Origin: a virus
Length of the DNA stretch: 44,002 nucleotides
Virus genome (UHGV): UHGV-1377823
Direction: 5' to 3' (one strand)
Part shown: positions 25,939 through 40,080 of the stretch, piece after piece
Position numbering within the stretch: the first letter of the stretch is position 1
Layout of the letters: every line of letters starts with the position of its first letter
Notes under the pieces: model-generated
Databases searched by the model: none
Told to the model about the DNA's origin: nothing
The model's input: the letters and a program-made list of their open reading frames with translations, nothing else
Position numbers and translations under genes: made by a program

Positions 25939-26238
25939 ATGGCAAAGGCGGCAACTAAAAGCCGCCTCAGCGAACTTCACAGGATGTTTACTGAGGCGCT
26001 AATTAGCGAACTCAAGCAGGCGGGGGAAGAGGAGATTCCTTTACCCGCTGCGGATAAGTCTGTTATCGCCAAGTTCCTCAAGGATAACGAAATCACTGCT
26101 GATGCAGACTCTACGGAGATGCAGGAGCTGCGGGACGAGTTCGAGGATGAGCTGGCAGCTAAGCGTAAAGCACGGGCTGAGGAACTGCTGGCTAAGGCTG
26201 GGGCAGACCCAGAGGATGATTTAGCAGGGATTATTTAA
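25939..26238 (+). CDS. terminase small subunit (DNA maturase A, gp18-like)
   Basis: 99 aa, acidic and helical, immediately upstream of the large terminase subunit. Confidence 0.7.
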   Translation: MAKAATKSRLSELHRMFTEALISELKQAGEEEIPLPAADKSVIAKFLKDNEITADADSTEMQELRDEFEDELAAKRKARAEELLAKAGADPEDDLAGII

Positions 26239-26239
26239 G

Positions 26240-28090
26240 ATGATAAGCCAAACTACACTGAGCAGACTCAAGCTCATCAGTGCTCGTACAACGGTAATGA
26301 ATGATAGCCCGAGGACTATCCCGAAGGACCAGCGTGAGGAAGTAGCGCTGATGATGGCTGTGACTCTGAAGGACTTCCGAGAGTTCGCATACTTAGGTAT
26401 GAAGTTCCTCGGATTCAACCTCACAGAGATGCAGGCTGATATAGCAGAGTTTATGCAGAAAGGCCCGCGCAAGCGCATGGTTGCTGCTCAGCGTGGTGAG
26501 GCTAAGACTACTCTGGCAGCGCTGTACGCTACATGGAGACTCATCCAAGACCAGAGCTGTCGCATCCTGATTGTATCAGCAGGTGAAAAGCAATCCTCAG
26601 ATACAGCGGTACTCATCATCCGTTTAATTGAGACATGGCCCCTGCTCTGCTATTTACGAGCAGACCCAAGCAAGGGCGACCGCACCTCATACGAAGGTTA
26701 TGACGTACACTGCGACCTGAAGCCTCTGGACCGTTCAGCTAGCGTAGCCTGCGTAGGTATCACTGCGTCCCTTCAGGGTAAGCGCGCGGACTTACTAATC
26801 CCGGACGATATTGAGAGTACCAAGAACGGTATGACCCAGACTATGCGTGAGCAGTTACTGGCATTGTCTAAGGACTTCGCCGCTATCTGTACGCACGGGG
26901 ACACGCTGTACCTAGGAACGCCGCAGACTAAGGACAGTATCTACAAGACCCTACCGGGACGTGGCTTTGAAGTGCGCGTATGGCCCGGTCGTATACCAAG
27001 TGAAGATATGGAGGAACGCTATGGCGATACACTTGCTCCTTATATCCGTGAGCTTATTGAGCGCGGGTATAAACGTACAGGATTCGGAATAGATGGAACA
27101 TTAGGAGAGTGCTCAGACAAGGGGCGGTATGATGAGGATGCCCTGCTAGAGAAAGAGCTGGACTTCGGCCCAGAGGGTTTCCAGTTGCAGTATATGCTCG
27201 ACACAACCTTATCTGATGCAATGAGAACAAGGATTAAGCTCAGTGACTGTATGGTCTACTCGGGTTCCCATGATGCAGCCCCAGACCGCCTCAGCTACAT
27301 AGCGGACAAGCGCTACCTCTATACAGAGGAGCACGAGGGTATCCGTGGGCAGTTGCTGTACCAGCCAGCTAGCTATGGTGAGCTGATGCTTCCGTACCAG
27401 CACAAGCTCATGGTCATTGACCCGGCGGGTTGTGGTGGGGACGAGGTGTCCTATGCAGCAGGCGGTGCAGCGAACTCGTACTTGCACCTGTTCTCTGTAG
27501 GTGGGTTCCAGGGCGGTATCAGTACTGAGAACATCGATAAGCTCATTGACCTGGCTATTGAGCTGGGTATCTCGGACTTGTTCATTGAGAGCAACATGGG
27601 GCATGGTACAGTAGAGATGCTGTTCATGAACCGACTGCGTGAGCGTAAGATTCCCGGTATCGGCGTTAGAGGGGGCTACAACACCTCACAGAAGGAGAAG
27701 CGTATCATTGATACCATCTCCCCAGTGACTCGTCGGCATCGCCTTGTAGTGCATTCTAGGGCGCTTACAGATGACATTCAGAGCTGCATGGCCTATAGCC
27801 GCGATAAGCGATGGTTGTACAGTGCATTCCAGCAGCTCCAAAGCATTACCTACGACCGTGGTAGCTTAGCAAAGGACGACCGTGCCGATGCCGTAGCTAT
27901 GCTCGTAGCAGAACTCAACGGCTTCTTGGTTGAGGATGAGAAGGTTTCGGCTGAGAAAGAGCAGCAGAAGCAAGCTCAGAAGTTCATGGATAATCCCATG
28001 GACTGGAAGCAAAGCATGGTTGCTCCGCGCAGCCGTGGTACTCAGGCCCGGATTGACCGGGGTTTAACTAGAAGAAAAGGAAGGTACTAA
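26240..28090 (+). CDS. terminase large subunit (DNA maturase B, gp19-like)
   Basis: 616 aa with an ATPase N-terminal region and a nuclease C-terminal region. Position and size match T7 gp19. Confidence 0.92.
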   Translation: MISQTTLSRLKLISARTTVMNDSPRTIPKDQREEVALMMAVTLKDFREFAYLGMKFLGFNLTEMQADIAEFMQKGPRKRMVAAQRGEAKTTLAALYATWRLIQDQSCRILIVSAGEKQSSDTAVLIIRLIETWPLLCYLRADPSKGDRTSYEGYDVHCDLKPLDRSASVACVGITASLQGKRADLLIPDDIESTKNGMTQTMREQLLALSKDFAAICTHGDTLYLGTPQTKDSIYKTLPGRGFEVRVWPGRIPSEDMEERYGDTLAPYIRELIERGYKRTGFGIDGTLGECSDKGRYDEDALLEKELDFGPEGFQLQYMLDTTLSDAMRTRIKLSDCMVYSGSHDAAPDRLSYIADKRYLYTEEHEGIRGQLLYQPASYGELMLPYQHKLMVIDPAGCGGDEVSYAAGGAANSYLHLFSVGGFQGGISTENIDKLIDLAIELGISDLFIESNMGHGTVEMLFMNRLRERKIPGIGVRGGYNTSQKEKRIIDTISPVTRRHRLVVHSRALTDDIQSCMAYSRDKRWLYSAFQQLQSITYDRGSLAKDDRADAVAMLVAELNGFLVEDEKVSAEKEQQKQAQKFMDNPMDWKQSMVAPRSRGTQARIDRGLTRRKGRY

Positions 28091-29460: not shown

Positions 29461-31170
29461 ATGTCTTTAGTAGACTTAACAGTAGCACGGCACCCGGTTG
29501 TAGATACGGGTAGCCAGACGATTACTACGATAGCTGCCTTGCGCACTACCGAGCCTAGCTCAGATAGGCAACGTGTTACGCTTCTGGAGCATACCGCAGG
29601 AACCCGTAAAGGTGGTGGCCAGTTCCGCGCCGTTTTGGCAGGTTCGTCATACACCGACAATAATGGCACCGTCATTAAAACGCCAGGCGGCGCGGCATGG
29701 GTTCGTATAAACGCCGATATCGTGAACCCGTTGATGTTTGGAGCTTTAGGCGATGGAGCGACAAATGACAGTGTTGCACTTAACCGTGCGGGTACATATG
29801 CTACTCGTGTGATTGACCTGTTAGGGCTTACATATGGCGTAGGATCAACATGGTATTTAGAAGCTACAACCCCAAAAGTTGTTAAAAATGGGGGTTTAAA
29901 ATATCTAACAGCTCTGGGCACGGGGCCAATGATGCGTTATAAAAACGCGGCCCATGAGATGTATAATGTGGATTTTGACGGGGGCGGCAGCACTACATCC
30001 ACAGGGCTTATCTGGGAGGGTGGGAACGCCCTTCGCGGGGTTCGCGGCGGTGTAGTTCAGGACTGTAGTTTCCGCTACACAGGTGGTTCGGGTATTGCCG
30101 TTTCTTATGACGGAGCTAATAATACCGTTGGTTCCTTTGGTGTGATTAAAAGAGTTACCTTCAATCATTGTGGCCTTACTGGCGTGGGTAATGGCCGTTG
30201 TTGCCTTCTGCTGGACGGTGTTAGTAACTTCACGGTCTCGGACATTGTGGGTATAGACTGCAACTGGGGTATTTATGTCCGCAACGACTTTAATAATCCT
30301 TTATTGTCTCGTGCGACAAACAATACAATTTCCCGTGTCAATCTTAAAGGGCAGGGACTGAACAGCACGGCATATCCAGATGCTCAGGGTATTTCCTGTT
30401 CTTATCAGGATAACCTACAAATTACTGATGTTACAGTGGATGGCTTCCCAGGTAATGGTATTGATATGCAATACTGCGACGCGAGTATAGTCACGAACTG
30501 GAGAGCTACTGCTTGCGGTGATGGTGTCTTTATGGGTGACAGGGCGTGTCGTAGGCACACTATCAGCAATGGCATTGCTATTGACTGTAACCGCGCTATC
30601 CGTCTTATCACCGACGGCGGCTCCTTCATAATGAACTCTGTGGTGCCAGCTCTTGCGCATATTAAAATTACCAACGTTCATGCGTACAATTCCAGACGCC
30701 AGGCTTTTTACCTTGTTAACTCTGGTAGAGCCGCATATGGGTCTTCTATGACTAATGTGCAATTAGATAACTGCTCGGTGGACGGTACAGGGTCTCTCTC
30801 CCTAACCACTCATACGCATGGATTCCATATAGAGGGTGGCGTTAACGTAACGCTTATGAACTGTAACACCTTCAACATTCGGCAACACGGGGTCTATGTC
30901 AAAGATAGTGAGTTTGTCCGTATATTGGGCGGGGCGCACCAAAACGTAGACCAGGTTGGCGCTGGGAACCAGGGTGTTTATGTATCCTCCGATTGTAACC
31001 GCGTTAGCGTCTCTGATGTGTCTGTCTACGGTTTCGCTACTGCTGGTGCAGTTACTTTAGCTGGTGGGTCTGGACATTCAGCTAAACATATTCGCTGGCG
31101 TAGTATTGCCAGCGGCGTAACATCAAGTGGGGCTTCCTCCCCTTATCTGTTCGATAACCAGTCGTTCTAA
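29461..31170 (+). CDS. tailspike / capsule depolymerase (pectate-lyase-like right-handed beta-helix)
   Basis: FGALGDGATNDSVAL is typical of the pectate lyase/tailspike beta-helix superfamily. Repeated G-x-N/D beta-helix rungs follow. 569 aa, with no T7 gp17-like N-terminal anchor. Located after the lysis genes at the genome right end. Confidence 0.85.
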   Translation: MSLVDLTVARHPVVDTGSQTITTIAALRTTEPSSDRQRVTLLEHTAGTRKGGGQFRAVLAGSSYTDNNGTVIKTPGGAAWVRINADIVNPLMFGALGDGATNDSVALNRAGTYATRVIDLLGLTYGVGSTWYLEATTPKVVKNGGLKYLTALGTGPMMRYKNAAHEMYNVDFDGGGSTTSTGLIWEGGNALRGVRGGVVQDCSFRYTGGSGIAVSYDGANNTVGSFGVIKRVTFNHCGLTGVGNGRCCLLLDGVSNFTVSDIVGIDCNWGIYVRNDFNNPLLSRATNNTISRVNLKGQGLNSTAYPDAQGISCSYQDNLQITDVTVDGFPGNGIDMQYCDASIVTNWRATACGDGVFMGDRACRRHTISNGIAIDCNRAIRLITDGGSFIMNSVVPALAHIKITNVHAYNSRRQAFYLVNSGRAAYGSSMTNVQLDNCSVDGTGSLSLTTHTHGFHIEGGVNVTLMNCNTFNIRQHGVYVKDSEFVRILGGAHQNVDQVGAGNQGVYVSSDCNRVSVSDVSVYGFATAGAVTLAGGSGHSAKHIRWRSIASGVTSSGASSPYLFDNQSF

Positions 31171-31290
31171 CCAGAGCTTCTAACCAGTCGCTCTAAGGAT
31201 AGCCTTGGGGATAGCTTAGGGAGTGCTAGTAGGGGATGCTGGTGTATACTTGCTCCCTAAAAATATTATACTTACTAATTGGAGATATCT

Positions 31291-31740
31291 ATGAACGTTA
31301 AATATGATACAAACTCCGCCAGCGGTCTGACCTGGTTAACTGGTAGACGCGCTGGTGCTGTAGCAGGAACCCTGAACGCTAAGGGCTACTGGGTTGTGCA
31401 GATGCAAGGCAAGAAGATGCAAGTGCATCGTATTATCTGGGAGATGCTGAATGGGCCTATACCAGATGATAAAGTGATTGACCACATAAACCAGAACCCT
31501 GCTGATAACCGCATTGAGAACCTGCGCCTAGCCAGTGTCAGCGATAACAACTGCAATGCTAGACGTGATAGCCGAGAGTATCCTCGTGGGGTATACTATA
31601 CAGGTTCATGCTGGCGCGGAGAGTTCTGGAAGGATGGCAAGCGCTATATGCGAAAGCACAGCTCATACGAAGTAATCTGCCAGTGGGTTCTCAGTGAACG
31701 CGCTAGGCTTCACGGGGAGTTTATCCCTGAGCAGGTGTAA
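31291..31740 (+). CDS. HNH homing endonuclease (HNH_3 + AP2-like)
   Basis: IDHINQNPADNRIENLRLASVSDNNCNA matches the HNH_3 motif. It is a paralogue of the HNH at 40064-40534. ATG 31291 has a GGAGA SD 5 nt upstream. Embedded in the GATAGC repeat array. Confidence 0.8.
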   Translation: MNVKYDTNSASGLTWLTGRRAGAVAGTLNAKGYWVVQMQGKKMQVHRIIWEMLNGPIPDDKVIDHINQNPADNRIENLRLASVSDNNCNARRDSREYPRGVYYTGSCWRGEFWKDGKRYMRKHSSYEVICQWVLSERARLHGEFIPEQV

Positions 31741-31773
31741 ACCTGTTAGTCAAAAATGATATACTTGTGTCAG

Positions 31774-31864
31774 CCTCACCCTCACCCTCACCGCCCCTCG
31801 TTTCCCCCATAGGGGGTGCCTCAGCCAGAACTATGGCCTGGGTGGGGTGGGGGCCTGGGCCTGT
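31774..31864 (+). repeat. (CCTCAC)x3 - CCCCCATAGGGGG palindrome - G-tract run (GGTGGGGTGGGGGCCTGGGCCTG)
   Basis: Three tandem CCTCAC hexamers at 31774-31791. A perfect 5+3+5 palindrome at 31804-31816. A run of five G-tracts at 31836-31864. The C-rich to G-rich strand switch gives G-quadruplex potential on both strands. Confidence 0.6.
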
Positions 31865-32198
31865 TCAGGGATAGCCTGGGGCCTCTACGAGGCTCTGGGA
31901 GCTTCTCTAAGCGCTTCTACCGGATAGCCTATAGGATTGCATAGGGATAGCCCTGTGATAGCCTTAGCGTGGCTCTGGTTGGCTCTGAGTGATAGCTCTG
32001 AGTAGCTCTGTGTGGTAGCGGAGGTGGGCGCAGGCTTACCTCTTTTCGTCCTCTATGTGTGCCTAGAGATAGCTTAGGGATAGCTGTAGAATCCTCACGT
32101 ACAGGCCGGAGATAGCTATTGGATAGCTCCAGTGTTAGCCGGTAATGGGTATAGCTAGAAGCTAGAGGTTGCATGATAAGGTATGCTGACTGTATGCA

Positions 32199-32227
32199 TT
32201 GACTAGGTATGACCATACTGCTACTAT
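32199..32227 (+). promoter_or_regulatory. candidate sigma70 promoter TTGACT-17-TACTAT
   Basis: -35 TTGACT at 32199-32204, a 17-nt spacer, and -10 TACTAT at 32222-32227, in an AT-rich region 170 nt upstream of the 32397 gene. Confidence 0.4.
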
Positions 32228-32396
32228 TGGTCATAGCTACTGTATATACTGAGTGCATACTGAGTATATAGCTATATAGAGTTGGTCACAGCTAATGGTA
32301 GTTGATGGGGTGTAACCATAGGTCACACCTCTGTAAGTACAGGGAATATAAGGAGTTGTTTGATTGAGTATAAATCAGTTAATAGAGGGTTTAAGT

Positions 32397-33095
32397 ATGA
32401 GTGTTCACAGCTACAGTACAGGTTTCGGTACACAGTCTGTTACGCTGAATGTACAGAGCCTGGTGGATACACTGGATAAATCCGGTTCGAGGCAGCAGCT
32501 GGTACAAACAGCGCTTAAGGCTGCCAGGGCACTGAGTAATGAACTGTACGGTGAAAGGAATATACTGAAGTGCATGCAGCTTGTGCTGGCTGCTATAGAT
32601 ACAGAGCGGTATCGTTCCGGTACAGAGGTTATCGATGCTGTACTGGATGCTGATACCGCGAAGTGGTTCAAAGCGTACCGGGTTACTCCGGCTCTGCAAG
32701 CACTGTTACCTGCTGGAGTATCAGCAGGGCGTTGTAAGGCTGCGGTTAACGCAGTGTTTAAGCTACAGGGCGGTACAGTAGCTGGTAGTAAGGCTGGTAA
32801 CGTTGTAGCTGCTGCGGATGGCTCTTACAGCGTTGATACAGTAGACCTCTGCGTAGAGTTATATGACCGAGGGTTAAGTGCCGAGGATATTCGGTTCATG
32901 CTACAGCATTATGGCTACAGTCTCACCGAGTGGGAGGTACTGGAGATACTTAATCGTGAGTGCGGCTACCTGGAGAAGTTTATCTATATAGGTAACGGAG
33001 AGGTAGTGCACGCTCAGTGCAGTAGCCTGGAAGGTCTGGAGCAGTGGCAGGACGTGGTGGTAGCTGCTGAGCAGCGTAAATGGCGGGGGATGTAA
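32397..33095 (+). CDS. hypothetical protein (232 aa)
   Basis: ATG with an AGAGGG SD 7 nt upstream. The track's 32364 start uses an alternative codon. No recognisable domain. Confidence 0.6.
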   Translation: MSVHSYSTGFGTQSVTLNVQSLVDTLDKSGSRQQLVQTALKAARALSNELYGERNILKCMQLVLAAIDTERYRSGTEVIDAVLDADTAKWFKAYRVTPALQALLPAGVSAGRCKAAVNAVFKLQGGTVAGSKAGNVVAAADGSYSVDTVDLCVELYDRGLSAEDIRFMLQHYGYSLTEWEVLEILNRECGYLEKFIYIGNGEVVHAQCSSLEGLEQWQDVVVAAEQRKWRGM

Positions 33096-38821: not shown

Positions 38822-40080
38822 TCTGCCGCGCTATGTGTGAGCGCAAGGTCTATGACAGGCTGCACGACCAGATACCAAAATCCATGCTTGCGCCCGATAC
38901 TGTAGCTCTTCTGGGTTGGATTCAACTCTACTATGCAACCTACACTGACAGCAACGCTGTGCAGTGGGACGCTATGCAGACGCTCCTTGGGATGCGCGGG
39001 CAGCATCTACAGAAAGAGCAAATGGATATCCTGAAGCACATGCTCAAGCAGGTGCAGCAGGTTCCTGAAGAAGCAGTAGCCGGGGTAGTGCGTACTCTGA
39101 ATGAGATGGCCTACTCCGGCGAGATGGCGTCGCTGGTGCAGCAGTACCAGGACGGTGCAGAGATAGACTTTATCGCAGAGGCCAAGCAGTTAGAGCGCAA
39201 GTACAGCAGCGTAGCGACAGCGCAGGACTCTTTACTTAACTGGGAAGATGGGGGTGTAGATGATATACTTGCAGCGACTGACGAAAGTGGTGGCCTTAAG
39301 CTTAATGTGTTTCCCGAGCTTGCTGATAATGTTCGTGGCTTACGTGGGGGTGATTGTGTCGCTGTTGCTGCCCCTGTCGATGCAGGAAAGACTAGCTTGC
39401 TGGCTGCAACGGTTGTGGGACTTACCGAACAACTTGTTAATCAAGATGCTTACGCAGATAGACCGGTTCTATGGCTCGTGAACGAATCCCTGGCAAAGCG
39501 TACTGTACCGCGCATCTACCAGGCAGCTACCGGGCTGACCCTGCATGAGATTGTAGAGCAGCACAAGCAAGGTAAGTTCGCAGAGAAGTACCTGGCTAAG
39601 GTGGGCAGCTGGGACCGCATCAGAGTTAAGGATGCGCACAGCATCACTATGCCTCAGATAGCTACGCTAATGGAGGAGATGCGCCCGGCTGTGCTGGTTG
39701 TGGATATGGTTTCAAATATACGGGGCGGCACTCTGGAGTCTGAGCATCAGAACCTGGAAGCCAAGTGGCAGGAGCTGCGCGTGCTGGGCTGTGAGTACGA
39801 TTGCATCATCATTGGCACCATGCAGCTATCAGTCGAGGGTTATGATATGCTGTACCCGCCGCTGACAGCGATGAAGCAGAGCAAGATCGGTGTACAGGGG
39901 GCGCTGGACCTGTGCATTATGATGGGCAGGTTAGACCCTAGCACAAGGCCGGACATGCTGAACATCCGGGGGATATCCACCCCGAAATGTAAGTTGGCTA
40001 AATCCGGCAGTCCTAGTTATTTGCAATTTCAAGTGGAGTTTGACGGTGGTAGATGTCAATTTAATGCAGGCCTTGTATAA
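38809..40080 (+). CDS. replicative DNA helicase (DnaB/gp4 helicase-domain family)
   Basis: Walker A motif AAPVDAGKTSL and a RecA-like core. TTG 38809 has a GGAGGG SD 7 nt upstream; ATG 38833 is an alternative start. Confidence 0.88.
   Translation: MDYLICRAMCERKVYDRLHDQIPKSMLAPDTVALLGWIQLYYATYTDSNAVQWDAMQTLLGMRGQHLQKEQMDILKHMLKQVQQVPEEAVAGVVRTLNEMAYSGEMASLVQQYQDGAEIDFIAEAKQLERKYSSVATAQDSLLNWEDGGVDDILAATDESGGLKLNVFPELADNVRGLRGGDCVAVAAPVDAGKTSLLAATVVGLTEQLVNQDAYADRPVLWLVNESLAKRTVPRIYQAATGLTLHEIVEQHKQGKFAEKYLAKVGSWDRIRVKDAHSITMPQIATLMEEMRPAVLVVDMVSNIRGGTLESEHQNLEAKWQELRVLGCEYDCIIIGTMQLSVEGYDMLYPPLTAMKQSKIGVQGALDLCIMMGRLDPSTRPDMLNIRGISTPKCKLAKSGSPSYLQFQVEFDGGRCQFNAGLV

What the first reader, a model, noticed from the sequence alone, without database searches (positions are those of the whole stretch)
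31774..31864. (CCTCAC)3 - palindrome - G-tract structured element
Three tandem CCTCAC hexamers are followed by a perfect palindrome CCCCCATAGGGGG and then five consecutive G-tracts (GGTGGGGTGGGGGCCTGGGCCTG). The element could form G-quadruplex or i-motif structures on both strands, or a long imperfect hairpin. It sits in the 2-kb mostly non-coding stretch where the genome ends are expected, immediately after the HNH insertion. It is a candidate packaging / terminase recognition or concatemer-resolution element, or a replication or transcription pause site.
Basis: seen in the sequence. Interest (0 to 1): 0.6.

Follow-up and report, generated by a model that had tools for sequence, protein, structure and literature searches.

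The report
Left end of phage terminal repeat
The flagged element is the first ~85 bp of the direct terminal repeat of a T7-like (Koutsourovirus-type) phage, that is, the physical left end of its DNA, and it carries a short box also found about 25 bp from the left end of T7, SP6, phiKMV and KP34-type phages; this is an expected feature of such genomes, not a new kind of element.

Summary
The three features are in the sequence as described and are unlikely to be chance. The window is a circularly permuted assembly of a Koutsourovirus-like phage (Autographiviridae, Slopekvirinae), 87-89% identical to Enterobacter phages Entb_48 and phiKDA1.

By homology to annotated or experimentally mapped direct terminal repeats (DTRs) of phiKDA1, KP34, fHe-Kpn01, KpV41, F19, Dlv622 and AttikonH1, the DTR is window 31780-32033 (254 bp). 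The left genome end falls between the first and second CCTCAC hexamer (31779|31780).

- **Hexamers:** only copies 2-3 (CCTCACCCT) are conserved.
- **"Palindrome":** it is a 5-bp inverted repeat with an ATA spacer. Its conserved core, CCCC(A/G)TAG, lies 26-31 nt from the left end in 10 of 13 reference genomes from four subfamilies. It matches T7 at 17 of 18 positions although the large terminases are only 34% identical.
- **G tract:** G-richness is specific to Slopekvirinae, and a canonical G4 motif is present in 8 of 31 relatives.
- **Folding:** the element folds no better than shuffled sequence.

The most likely role is the left-end recognition and cleavage region for the T7-type terminase. 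That is inferred from position and conservation, not shown.

The parts
31780..32033 (+). Predicted direct terminal repeat (DTR), 254 bp, present once in this collapsed, circularly permuted assembly.
   Evidence: 82.6% identical to the annotated 267-bp right direct repeat of phiKDA1. The start aligns with phiKDA1 nt 1. The end ...GGAGGTGGGCGCAG aligns with the last bases of the phiKDA1 repeat and, within 1-2 nt, with the mapped fHe-Kpn01 repeat end.
31779..31780 (.). Predicted left-end cleavage position (between these two bases) in the replicative concatemer.
   Evidence: Annotated DTRs of phiKDA1, KP34, fHe-Kpn01, Dlv622, KpV41, F19 and AttikonH1 all begin at or within 1 nt of this homologous base. 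Conservation rises from 1.17 to 1.9 bits per position at this point in 37 Slopekvirinae sequences (that set was selected for CTCACCC, so the rise is partly built in, but the selection removed only non-Slopekvirinae hits). Not measured for this phage itself.
31774..31779 (+). First CCTCAC hexamer. It lies just outside the DTR, in the variable linker left of the cut.
   Evidence: Relatives read gcccctc, cagggtc, ggctggc or gcctccc at this position.
31780..31791 (+). Second and third CCTCAC hexamers, equal to DTR nt 1-12. CCTCACCCT is the conserved terminal sequence.
   Evidence: CCTCACCCT starts exactly 24 nt upstream of the box in every Slopekvirinae-type stretch recovered. Compare the T7 left end, TCTCAC.
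31804..31821 (+). Left-end box CCCCCATAGGGGGTGCCT (DTR nt 25-42). The conserved core is CCCC(A/G)TAG.
   Evidence: Matches T7 nt 26-43 at 17 of 18 positions. The CCCRTAG core lies 26-31 nt from the left end in 10 of 13 reference genomes of Studiervirinae, Molineuxvirinae, Krylovirinae and Slopekvirinae. It is unique in the window.
31840..31859 (+). G tract GGGTGGGGTGGGGGCCTGGG (DTR nt 61-80), with a canonical G4 motif in this genome.
   Evidence: Highest G4Hunter score in the window. A G-rich tract scoring 1.5 or more lies at DTR +42 to +63 in 30 of 31 Slopekvirinae relatives, often as poly-G of 10-23. The canonical motif is present in only 8 of 31.
31869..31997 (+). GGATAGCY short repeats inside the DTR. 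Further copies lie at 31197-31216 and 32068-32128.
   Evidence: 12 of the 28 + strand GATAGC copies in the window lie in 31150-32360, and none of the 21 - strand copies do (families D1, D2 and D5).
32034..32048 (+). Conserved motif GCTTACCTCTTTTCG immediately right of the DTR.
   Evidence: phiKDA1 has GCTTACCTCTTTTG, fHe-Kpn01 CGTCTTACCTATTTTG, KP34 TGCCTTGCTTATTTTG and phiKMV CCTTGCCTCT at the same position. T7, T3, K1F and SP6 carry ATCTGT(T) there.
31731..31766 (+). Conserved pre-DTR element GCAGGTGTAAACCTGTTAGTCAAAAATGATATACTT, 14-49 nt left of the cut. It overlaps the HNH stop codon.
   Evidence: Conserved across Koutsourovirus and Drulisvirus at -50 to -10. Its 16-mer core occurs only here and at 31258, with one weak match at 39255.
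31238..31273 (+). Second, diverged copy of the pre-DTR element, left of the HNH gene.
   Evidence: 72% identical to 31731-31766 (family D6). The same two-copy arrangement surrounds the HNH gene of Klebsiella phage KpV71.
31291..31740 (+). HNH_3 homing-type endonuclease gene inserted between the tailspike gene and the DTR.
   Evidence: PF13392 E=1.1e-19 and phrog_99 E=2.6e-45. Homologues of 71-74% amino-acid identity occur in 44 phage records; those whose coordinates are interpretable lie at the far right end of the genome, just before the DTR. The gene is absent from Salmonella phage KKP 3828.
25939..26238 (+). Small terminase subunit (T7 gp18 family).
   Evidence: PF11123 E=7.7e-19 and phrog_891 E=6.2e-30.
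26240..28090 (+). Large terminase subunit with the T7-type RNaseH-like nuclease domain. This is the presumed enzyme that cuts at the DTR edges.
   Evidence: PF22530 E=2.7e-30 and phrog_38 E=1.4e-112. 34% identical to T7 gp19, E=1e-83.

Best explanation
The element is the leftmost ~85 bp of the phage's 254-bp direct terminal repeat (DTR, window 31780-32033) plus 6 bp of the flank outside it.

Shown by homology: the genome is T7-like, and the assembly has collapsed its two terminal repeats into one copy and permuted the map. The virion DNA's left end corresponds to 31779|31780. The first CCTCAC therefore lies outside the repeat, and the second and third are its first 12 nt. Next come a box at nt 25-42 that is shared with T7 and a G-rich tract at nt 61-80.

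Inferred mechanism: in the replicative concatemer, one DTR copy separates genome units. The T7-type terminase (small subunit TerS 25939-26238, large subunit TerL 26240-28090) must cut at both DTR edges. From the T7 literature as I recall it, packaging starts at a right end and runs leftwards. The left-end cut would then be the terminating cut, and a translocating terminase would meet the G tract, then the box, then the cut site about 24 bp further on. I propose that the CCCC(A/G)TAG box is the sequence cue that positions this cut at a fixed distance. It would work like lambda cosQ/cosN or the T7/T3 'pacC-left' signal. The terminal CCTCACCCT would be the cleavage-site sequence itself. The G tract would be a lineage-specific accessory or a slippage-prone spacer.

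Sub-confidences: it is the DTR left end, about 0.9; the cut is at 31779|31780 within 2 nt, about 0.75; the box is a terminase cue for left-end formation, about 0.5.
For: 1. Identity of the genome: 87-89% nucleotide identity to Koutsourovirus phages and T7-family terminase genes.
2. Position: the element lies between the last late gene (tailspike, plus an inserted HNH gene) and the first early ORFs.
3. Repeat boundaries: homologous sequence is annotated as the direct repeat in phiKDA1, and eight independently annotated relatives start their repeat at or within 1 nt of the same base.
4. Experimental mapping: the fHe-Kpn01 ends were mapped by PhageTerm, ligation and Sanger sequencing and are blunt (PMC7291057).
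5. Conservation step: conservation rises at the predicted cut, while the 6-9 nt to its left vary.
6. The box: the CCCRTAG core lies 26-31 nt from the left end in 10 of 13 reference genomes of four subfamilies. Its background frequency is 1.25e-4 per position. The box matches T7 at 17 of 18 positions although TerL is only 34% identical and the rest of the repeat does not align.
7. Other T7-like contigs: the box recurs in T7-like metagenomic contigs, downstream of a T7-type TerL (L062) and upstream of small early-type ORFs (L037).
8. Literature: T7 packaging uses PacB (bound by gp18) and PacC (cut by gp19) (PMC9860248). The specificity determinants lie within 5% of the termini (PMC3276506).
Against: - No reads or virion-end data exist for this phage, so the terminus is inferred only by homology. 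How the phiKDA1 ends were determined is not documented in anything I could read.
- No experiment links the box to terminase in any phage I could find. Full-text searches for the motif returned nothing relevant, and the classic T7/T3 pac papers are not in the library.
- LKA1, LIMElight and Syn5 have only C-run variants of the box.
- The direction-of-packaging argument rests on my recollection of the T7 literature, not on a source read here.
- TerS shows no pairwise BLASTP similarity to T7 gp18, so a shared DNA-reading surface is not demonstrated.
Confidence: 0.75

Rival explanations
1. The C-rich and G-rich blocks form i-motif or G-quadruplex structures that act as a replication, transcription or packaging-motor pause site. 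Structure, not sequence recognition, would be the function.
For: The two most extreme G4Hunter windows of the whole genome flank the box, and canonical motifs occur on both strands. A G-rich tract scoring 1.5 or more is kept at DTR +42 to +63 in 30 of 31 Slopekvirinae relatives.
Against: The canonical four-run motif is present in only 8 of 31 relatives. The tract varies from G4 to G23 runs, as expected of slippage. T7, SP6, K1F and LIMElight repeats score 1.1 or less. The - strand motif needs the C run that spans the cut, so it exists only in the uncut junction. The DNA is duplex in the concatemer. No structural data exist.
Confidence: 0.12
2. The terminal C-rich arm pairs with the G-rich arm around the small CCCCC/GGGGG hairpin. 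This fold-back structure on single-stranded ends would prime synthesis to duplicate the terminal repeat (a T7 'hairpin intermediate' type model).
For: Minimum-energy folds of the window, phiKDA1, KP34 and fHe-Kpn01 all pair the left C-rich arm with the G tract around the 5-bp hairpin. The SP6 left 90 nt folds better than shuffles, z=-2.2.
Against: z-scores for the window and all Slopekvirinae relatives lie between -0.6 and +0.6, so the folds are no more stable than composition alone gives. Poly-G variants cannot pair in register with CCTCACCCT. The box is not an inverted repeat in T3, K1F or phiKMV.
Confidence: 0.08
3. The box is conserved for a role at the leading end of the DNA in the virion or during ejection, for example anchoring the last-packaged, first-ejected end in the portal-tail channel or protecting the entering end. 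It would not be a terminase cue.
For: The box lies at a fixed distance from the end that, in T7 (my recollection of the literature), enters the cell first. The conservation is family-wide.
Against: The same sequence is also present internally in the right-end repeat copy. No sequence-specific DNA contact in T7-like tails is known to me. Nothing here bears on it directly.
Confidence: 0.08
4. The hexamer triplet and the G tract are neutral by-products of slippage in non-coding terminal DNA and have no function of their own.
For: The perfect 3x hexamer arises from two substitutions relative to the nearest relatives. G-run length is hypervariable. Variable short repeats and homopolymer tracts are reported in T7-like repeats (PMC5923468).
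Against: CCTCACCCT and the box are nearly invariant across the subfamily. This rival can therefore hold only for hexamer copy 1 and for the exact form of the G tract. For those two it is compatible with the main explanation.
Confidence: 0.3

Closest known systems
Left direct repeat of Enterobacter phage phiKDA1 (JQ267518, nt 1-267; Koutsourovirus)
   Same: It is orthologous: 82.6% identity over the repeat, with the same start (CCTCACCCTCA), the same box at nt 25-42, a G tract at about nt 58-75, the same repeat end (GGAGGTGGGCGCAG) and the same following motif (GCTTACCTCTTTT).
   Different: The window's repeat is 254 bp against 267 bp. The window has a perfect third hexamer outside the repeat and a canonical four-run G4 motif, both lacking in phiKDA1. 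The window also has an HNH gene inserted just upstream.
Drulisvirus (KP34-like) terminal repeats: KP34, fHe-Kpn01 (ends mapped experimentally), KpV41, F19, Dlv622, AttikonH1
   Same: They share the terminal CCTCACCCT, the same box at the same distance, a G-rich tract after the box, a conserved pre-DTR element and a CTTRCYTATTTTG-type motif after the repeat.
   Different: The sequence between and after these blocks is not alignable. The G tract is often a pure poly-G of 10-23.
Bacteriophage T7 terminal repetition (nt 1-160) and its concatemer-junction packaging signals (PacB/PacC)
   Same: The left end is TCTCAC against CCTCAC here. The box CCCCCATAGGGGGTACCT lies at nt 26-43 against nt 25-42 here. 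Short oriented repeats flank and invade the repeat (CCTAAAG in T7, GGATAGCY here). The terminase is homologous.
   Different: There is no tandem hexamer and no high-scoring G tract in T7. T7 has ATCTGTT immediately right of the repeat, where this phage has GCTTACCTCTTTT. Which T7 bases constitute PacB and PacC could not be checked in the held literature.
Lambda cosQ-cosN (termination of packaging). Functional analogy only.
   Same: It is a short sequence cue met by the translocating terminase shortly before the site where it cuts to finish a chromosome. This is inference plus my own knowledge of lambda.
   Different: Lambda makes staggered nicks that give 12-nt cohesive ends and has no terminal repeat. 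The mapped relative here has blunt ends and a 222-bp repeat (PMC7291057). There is no sequence similarity.

Membership tests
Short exact direct terminal repeat of Autographiviridae (T7-like) genomes | The genome is a T7-like podovirus with a T7-family terminase. | tested here: met
   87-89% nucleotide identity to Koutsourovirus phages. TerS matches PF11123 and TerL matches PF22530. TerL is 34% identical to T7 gp19.
Short exact direct terminal repeat of Autographiviridae (T7-like) genomes | The sequence is homologous to repeats annotated or mapped in relatives, with matching boundaries. | tested here: met
   The fHe-Kpn01 ends were mapped experimentally (PMC7291057).
Short exact direct terminal repeat of Autographiviridae (T7-like) genomes | The sequence lies in the non-coding gap between the last late gene and the first early gene. 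| tested here: met
   The tailspike gene ends at 31170, the HNH gene is 31291-31740, and the first early ORF starts at 32364. ORFs inside the gap have no family hits, and there is no Rfam match.
Short exact direct terminal repeat of Autographiviridae (T7-like) genomes | The same sequence is present at both ends of the virion DNA of this phage. | not testable with these tools
   The window is a single collapsed assembly with no terminal overlap and no reads.
T7/T3-type packaging (pac) signal at the concatemer junction | Left-end terminal sequence of YCTCAC type with a CCCC(A/G)TAG box 26-31 nt inside. | tested here: met
T7/T3-type packaging (pac) signal at the concatemer junction | The RNA-polymerase pause signal ATCTGTT lies at the right edge of the repeat. 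| tested here: not met
   T7, T3, K1F and SP6 have ATCTGT(T) there. The window has GCTTACCTCTTTTCG. A different signal at the same position is possible but untested.
T7/T3-type packaging (pac) signal at the concatemer junction | The sequence is required in cis for cleavage and packaging. | not testable with these tools
   This needs a transduction, packaging or in vitro cleavage assay.
Intramolecular G-quadruplex-forming sequence | Four runs of at least three G with loops of 1-7 nt. | tested here: met
   31840-31859 on the + strand, and the complement of 31779-31808 on the - strand.
Intramolecular G-quadruplex-forming sequence | The motif is conserved in relatives, as expected if the structure is the selected feature. 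| tested here: not met
   The canonical motif occurs in 8 of 31 Slopekvirinae relatives and in none of phiKDA1, KP34, fHe-Kpn01, T7, SP6 or K1F. G-richness itself is kept in 30 of 31.
Intramolecular G-quadruplex-forming sequence | The structure forms in vitro or in vivo. | not testable with these tools
   This needs circular dichroism, polymerase-stop assays or chemical probing.
Hairpin or cruciform element | The fold is more stable than composition-matched shuffles. | tested here: not met
   z = +0.55 and +0.02 for the two strands of the element. Relatives give -0.6 to +0.6, and the 31-nt core gives -1.2.
Hairpin or cruciform element | Inverted-repeat symmetry is conserved across relatives. 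| tested here: not met
   The box is symmetric in T7 and Slopekvirinae, partly in SP6, K1-5 and gh-1, and not in T3 (CCCCATAGCCCCTC), K1F or phiKMV (CCCC[A/G]TAGGCCCTC).

The most novel reading that the evidence does not exclude
The CCCC(A/G)TAG box, at a fixed 26-31 bp from the left end in at least four Autographiviridae subfamilies, may be the long-sought cis signal that tells the T7-type terminase where to make the terminating (left-end) cut. The pre-DTR element may be a second required cis part of the junction: it is unique in the genome, and the HNH insert is flanked by two copies so that one copy always stays next to the repeat. If so, one 8-bp motif would make the poorly understood step of left-end formation and repeat duplication directly testable in T7. 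It would also allow physical ends to be predicted from sequence alone in collapsed assemblies of T7-like phages.
Probability: 0.35. Interest if true: 0.55.

Novelty: new member of a known kind. Interest (0 to 1): 0.3.

Why it matters
For this genome, the result fixes the true map. The DNA starts at about 31780, the repeat is about 254 bp, and the assembly should be re-opened there. More broadly, the box-to-end distance gives a simple sequence rule for locating the left terminus of T7-like phages in metagenomic or collapsed assemblies. The rule was seen in 10 of 13 references and every Slopekvirinae contig examined. The box is also a concrete, mutable candidate for the cis signal of left-end cleavage. 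A 2012 paper citing the standard T7 review describes completion of the left repeat as 'still not fully understood' (PMC3350473). As a kind of element, a terminal repeat end in a T7-like phage is expected and ordinary.

Tried and rejected
- **Long imperfect hairpin.** I folded both strands of the element and the first 90 nt of six relatives. None was more stable than shuffles except SP6. Rejected for this lineage.
- **Known RNA family.** The only match in 31100-32400 was a chance hit at E=0.92.
- **Hidden coding sequence.** The 109-aa minus-strand and 42-aa plus-strand ORFs have no PHROG hits.
- **Pre-DTR element as a general phage-polymerase promoter.** Drulisvirus copies contain GACTCAC, as the T7 promoter does (my recollection of the T7 consensus). 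However, its core occurs only twice in the window, plus one weak match, so it is not a reiterated promoter. A longer gapped pattern was mis-spaced and found nothing.
- **Assembly overlap.** The window ends do not overlap, so nothing can be learned about the termini from the assembly itself.
- **Literature.** Full-text searches for CCCCCATAGGGGG, CCCCATAGG, CCCATAGG plus bacteriophage, and TCTCACAG plus terminal repeat found no phage paper. The SP6, phiYeO3-12, LKA1 and Syn5 genome papers are not held. The classic T7/T3 pac papers, as subscription-journal articles, were not looked up. I therefore cannot say whether the cross-subfamily box has already been described.
- **The 18-mer is not exclusive to T7-like phages.** Two IMG/VR hits (L021, L031) are ssRNA-phage contigs in which it forms part of an unrelated hairpin.
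Full report

The three features are in the sequence as described:
- CCTCAC x3 lies at 31774-31791.
- CCCCCATAGGGGG lies at 31804-31816.
- G runs of 3, 4, 5 and 3 lie at 31840-31859.

They are more than chance would give.
- TRF reports a period-6 array of 3.8 copies.
- The 18-mer hexamer array with up to 3 mismatches is expected 0.06 times per shuffled window.
- The 13-mer with up to 1 mismatch is expected 0.07 times and occurs once.
- The two most extreme G4Hunter windows in all 44 kb are the C-rich block (-1.96 at 31784) and the G-rich block (+2.0 at 31835). Apart from one motif at 30004, the only canonical four-run G4 motifs in the window are here, one on each strand.

Some details need correcting.
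- The 13-mer is not self-complementary. It is a 5-bp inverted repeat around an ATA spacer.
- There are four G runs of 3 or more, not five.
- The non-coding gap is about 1.2 kb including a 450-bp HNH gene, not 2 kb.

**2. What is the genome?**

- The late-gene half is 87-89% identical to Enterobacter phages Entb_48, phiKDA1, SDFMU_Pec and SDFMU_EhYP and to Salmonella phage KKP 3828. The classified ones are Koutsourovirus (Autographiviridae, Slopekvirinae).
- The window encodes a T7-family small terminase (PF11123) and a large terminase with the T7 RNaseH-like nuclease domain (PF22530). The large subunit is 34% identical to T7 gp19.
- Upstream of the finding lie an endolysin gene, a spanin gene and a beta-helix tailspike gene that ends at 31170, followed by an HNH_3 endonuclease gene at 31291-31740. 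Early-type ORFs start at 32364.
- The window ends do not overlap. It is therefore a permuted, collapsed assembly of a linear genome.

**3. What is the element?**

A 661-bp query around the finding hit the annotated 'left direct repeat' of phiKDA1. Base 1 of that record aligns to window 31780. The phiKDA1 right repeat begins at the same sequence, preceded by ...cccctc.

A more sensitive search found 143 phage records, mostly Klebsiella Drulisvirus. Wherever a terminal repeat is annotated among the listed hits, the match falls in it. In Dlv622, KpV41, F19 and AttikonH1 the annotated right repeat starts 8-9 nt into the match, which is window 31780-31781. KP34 and fHe-Kpn01 start the same way. The fHe-Kpn01 ends were mapped with PhageTerm, ligation and Sanger sequencing, are blunt, and bound a 222-bp repeat (PMC7291057).

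The phiKDA1 repeat ends ...GGAGGTGGGCGCAG, which is window 32020-32033. The predicted repeat is therefore 31780-32033, 254 bp. The left genome end falls between the first and second CCTCAC.

**4. Which sub-features are conserved?**

I scanned IMG/VR for CCCCCATAGGGGGTRCCT and found 48 stretches, 47 of them distinct.
- **Terminal sequence.** In every Slopekvirinae-type stretch, CCTCACCCT starts exactly 24 nt upstream of the box. The 6-9 nt before it vary (gcccctc, cagggtc, ggctggc, gcctccc).
- **Information content.** In 37 distinct sequences it is 1.17 bits per position at -9 to -1 and 1.9 bits at +1 to +9. That set was chosen for CTCACCC, so this number is partly built in. The filter removed only T7, two other T7-like contigs and two ssRNA-phage contigs.
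- **Hexamers.** Hexamer 1 is therefore not conserved. The perfect triplet differs by two substitutions from the nearest relatives, which read CCTCCC|CCTCACCCTCAA.
- **G tract.** It is conserved as a property. G4Hunter is 1.5 or more at repeat position +42 to +63 in 30 of 31 relatives, but the form runs from G4-G5 runs to poly-G of 10-23. A canonical G4 motif occurs in only 8 of 31. T7, SP6, K1F and LIMElight repeats score 1.1 or less.

**5. The box is family-wide.**

The left ends of the reference genomes read as follows:

| Phage | Left-end sequence | Position of CCCRTAG core (nt from left end) |
|---|---|---|
| T7 | TCTCAC...TTCCCCCATAGGGGGTACCT | 28 |
| T3 | ...CCCCCCCCATAGCCCCTC | 31 |
| K1F | ...CTCCCCATAGGCCCTC | 28 |
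| gh-1 | ...TTCCCCCGTAGGGGCCTC | 29 |
| SP6 | ...GTCCCCATAGGGTGCCT | 30 |
| K1-5 | ...GTCCCCATAGGGTGGCCT | 26 |
| phiKMV | ...TTCCCCCGTAGGCCCTC | 28 |
| KP34, fHe-Kpn01, phiKDA1, the window | ...CCCCCATAGGGGGTGCCT | 27-28 |

- Ten of 13 references from four subfamilies have the core within a 6-nt range of positions. Its background frequency in the window is 1.25e-4 per position.
- LKA1, LIMElight and Syn5 have C-run variants at the same place.
- Only the left half of the box is invariant, so the inverted-repeat symmetry seen here and in T7 is not the selected feature.
- The box matches T7 at 17 of 18 positions although the large terminases share only 34% identity and the rest of the repeats cannot be aligned.
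- Tandem hexamers at the extreme left end recur independently in SP6 (CGGCCT), K1-5 (CGCCCT) and phiKMV (TCCGAC).

**6. Structure hypotheses.**

- As single strands, the element folds at -17.1 and -18.7 kcal/mol against shuffle means of -18.4 and -18.7 (z +0.55 and +0.02).
- The first 90 nt of the window repeat and of phiKDA1, KP34 and fHe-Kpn01 give z between -0.6 and +0.6. Only SP6 stands out, at z -2.2.
- The C-arm/G-arm pairing appears in the minimum-energy folds but is what the composition alone would give.
- No Rfam family matches.

**7. Surroundings that belong to the same system.**

- **(a) Right of the repeat.** A motif immediately follows it: GCTTACCTCTTTTCG at 32034-32048. phiKDA1, fHe-Kpn01, KP34 and, more loosely, phiKMV carry related sequences there. 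At the same position T7, T3, K1F and SP6 carry ATCTGT(T). From my own knowledge, that is the class II pause signal of T7 RNA polymerase. [quoted passage not shown] Whether the Slopekvirinae motif is an equivalent signal is speculation.
- **(b) Left of the repeat.** A conserved pre-DTR element lies at 31731-31766, at -50 to -10 relative to the cut. Its core is otherwise found only at 31258.
- **(c) The HNH gene.** It lies between these two copies (family D6). In KpV71 an HNH gene 72% identical at the protein level is flanked in the same way, with the native-type copy upstream and a different allele next to the repeat. KKP 3828 has one copy and no HNH gene. The insert thus sits between two copies, so that one copy always remains adjacent to the repeat. 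This argues that adjacency matters in cis.
- **(d) GGATAGCY repeats.** They are strongly enriched and strand-specific around and inside the repeat: 12 of 28 + strand copies and 0 of 21 - strand copies. They parallel the CCTAAAG repeats visible in and beside the T7 repeat.

**8. Mechanism.**

Shown, by homology: the element is the left end of the terminal repeat, and the cut lies at or within about 2 nt of 31779|31780.

From papers read here:
- Concatemers of T7-like phages carry one repeat per junction. They are cut sequence-specifically, and completion of the left repeat is 'still not fully understood' (PMC3350473).
- In T7, gp18 recognises PacB and gp19 cuts at PacC (PMC9860248).
- The T3/T7 specificity determinants lie within 5% of the ends (PMC3276506).

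From my memory of the T7 literature, not verified here: packaging begins at a right end and proceeds leftwards, and the right end forms before the left.

Inference: a terminase moving leftwards meets the G tract, then the box, then the cut site about 24 bp later. The box would then be the cue that positions the terminating cut, working like lambda cosQ/cosN. CCTCACCCT would be the cut-site sequence. I put about 0.5 on this specific role.

Rivals are given in the Rival explanations section: a G4 or i-motif pause site, fold-back priming, end-anchoring during ejection, and neutral slippage for hexamer 1 and for the exact form of the G tract.

**9. Comparison and novelty.**

The element is orthologous to the annotated phiKDA1 repeat and homologous in its key blocks to the KP34-type and T7 repeats. 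As a kind of element it is known and expected in such a genome.

It meets the testable defining features of an Autographiviridae terminal repeat. Duplication at both virion ends cannot be tested here. It lacks the T7-type ATCTGTT at the right edge.

I could not establish whether the cross-subfamily box has been described before. Four motif searches of the open-access library found nothing, and the relevant older papers are not held.

**10. Verdict.**

Its packaging interpretation is supported in outline. Its structural interpretations are unsupported (hairpin) or untested and only weakly conserved (G4). It is an ordinary feature of a T7-like genome, with one useful by-product: a deeply conserved left-end box at a fixed distance from the terminus.

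Noticed in passing
window 31238-31273 and 31731-31766; L071 (KpV71) 182-226 and 676-722: The HNH_3 endonuclease gene is flanked by two diverged copies of the conserved pre-DTR element, both here and in Klebsiella phage KpV71. The copy next to the repeat is a different allele from the upstream one. The mobile insert therefore appears to carry its own copy, and one copy always stays adjacent to the repeat.
   Followed up: partly
window 31197-31216, 31869-31997, 32068-32128: GGATAGCY short repeats are strand-specific and concentrated around and inside the terminal repeat: 12 of 28 + strand GATAGC copies lie in 1.2 kb, and none of the 21 - strand copies do. They are positionally analogous to the CCTAAAG repeats in and beside the T7 repeat. 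Their function is unknown.
   Followed up: partly
window 32034-32048: GCTTACCTCTTTTCG immediately follows the predicted repeat and is conserved in phiKDA1, fHe-Kpn01, KP34 and, more loosely, phiKMV. T7, T3, K1F and SP6 carry ATCTGT(T) at that same position. It may be an equivalent pause or right-end signal, but this is untested.
   Followed up: partly
window 31155-31196: A 13-nt tandem repeat, TAACCAGTCGTTC, of 3.2 copies overlaps the tailspike stop codon and runs into the intergenic region.
   Followed up: no
L024 13060-13248; L022, L032, L033 (IMG/VR Drulisvirus contigs): Several metagenomic assemblies break, or become chimeric or inverted, exactly in the poly-G tract that follows the box. 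L024 carries two inverted copies of the repeat start joined through G/C homopolymers. This is probably a sequencing or assembly artefact at the homopolymer.
   Followed up: no
L012 (SP6) 1-78: The extreme left end of SP6, TCTCTCGGCCTC..., is complementary to GGAGGCCTGAGAGA at about nt 64-78. The first 90 nt fold better than shuffles (z=-2.2, 4 of 200 shuffles as good). This is unlike the Slopekvirinae ends.
   Followed up: no
L021 2824-2841 and L031 748-765: The same 18-mer, CCCCCATAGGGGGTACCT, occurs inside a larger hairpin (CCAGAG...CTCTCTGG) in two ssRNA-phage contigs that encode an RNA replicase beta subunit. This appears unrelated to the T7-like box.
   Followed up: partly
window 32140-32360: An AT-rich stretch after the repeat holds sigma-70-like sites (for example TTGACT-17-TACTAT with an upstream TG at 32199-32227) and small palindromes (TATATAGCTATATA at 32265-32278). 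It is presumably the early host-polymerase promoter region.
   Followed up: no
window 30004-30024: The only other canonical G4 motif in the window, GGGCTTATCTGGGAGGGTGGG, lies inside the tailspike gene.
   Followed up: no
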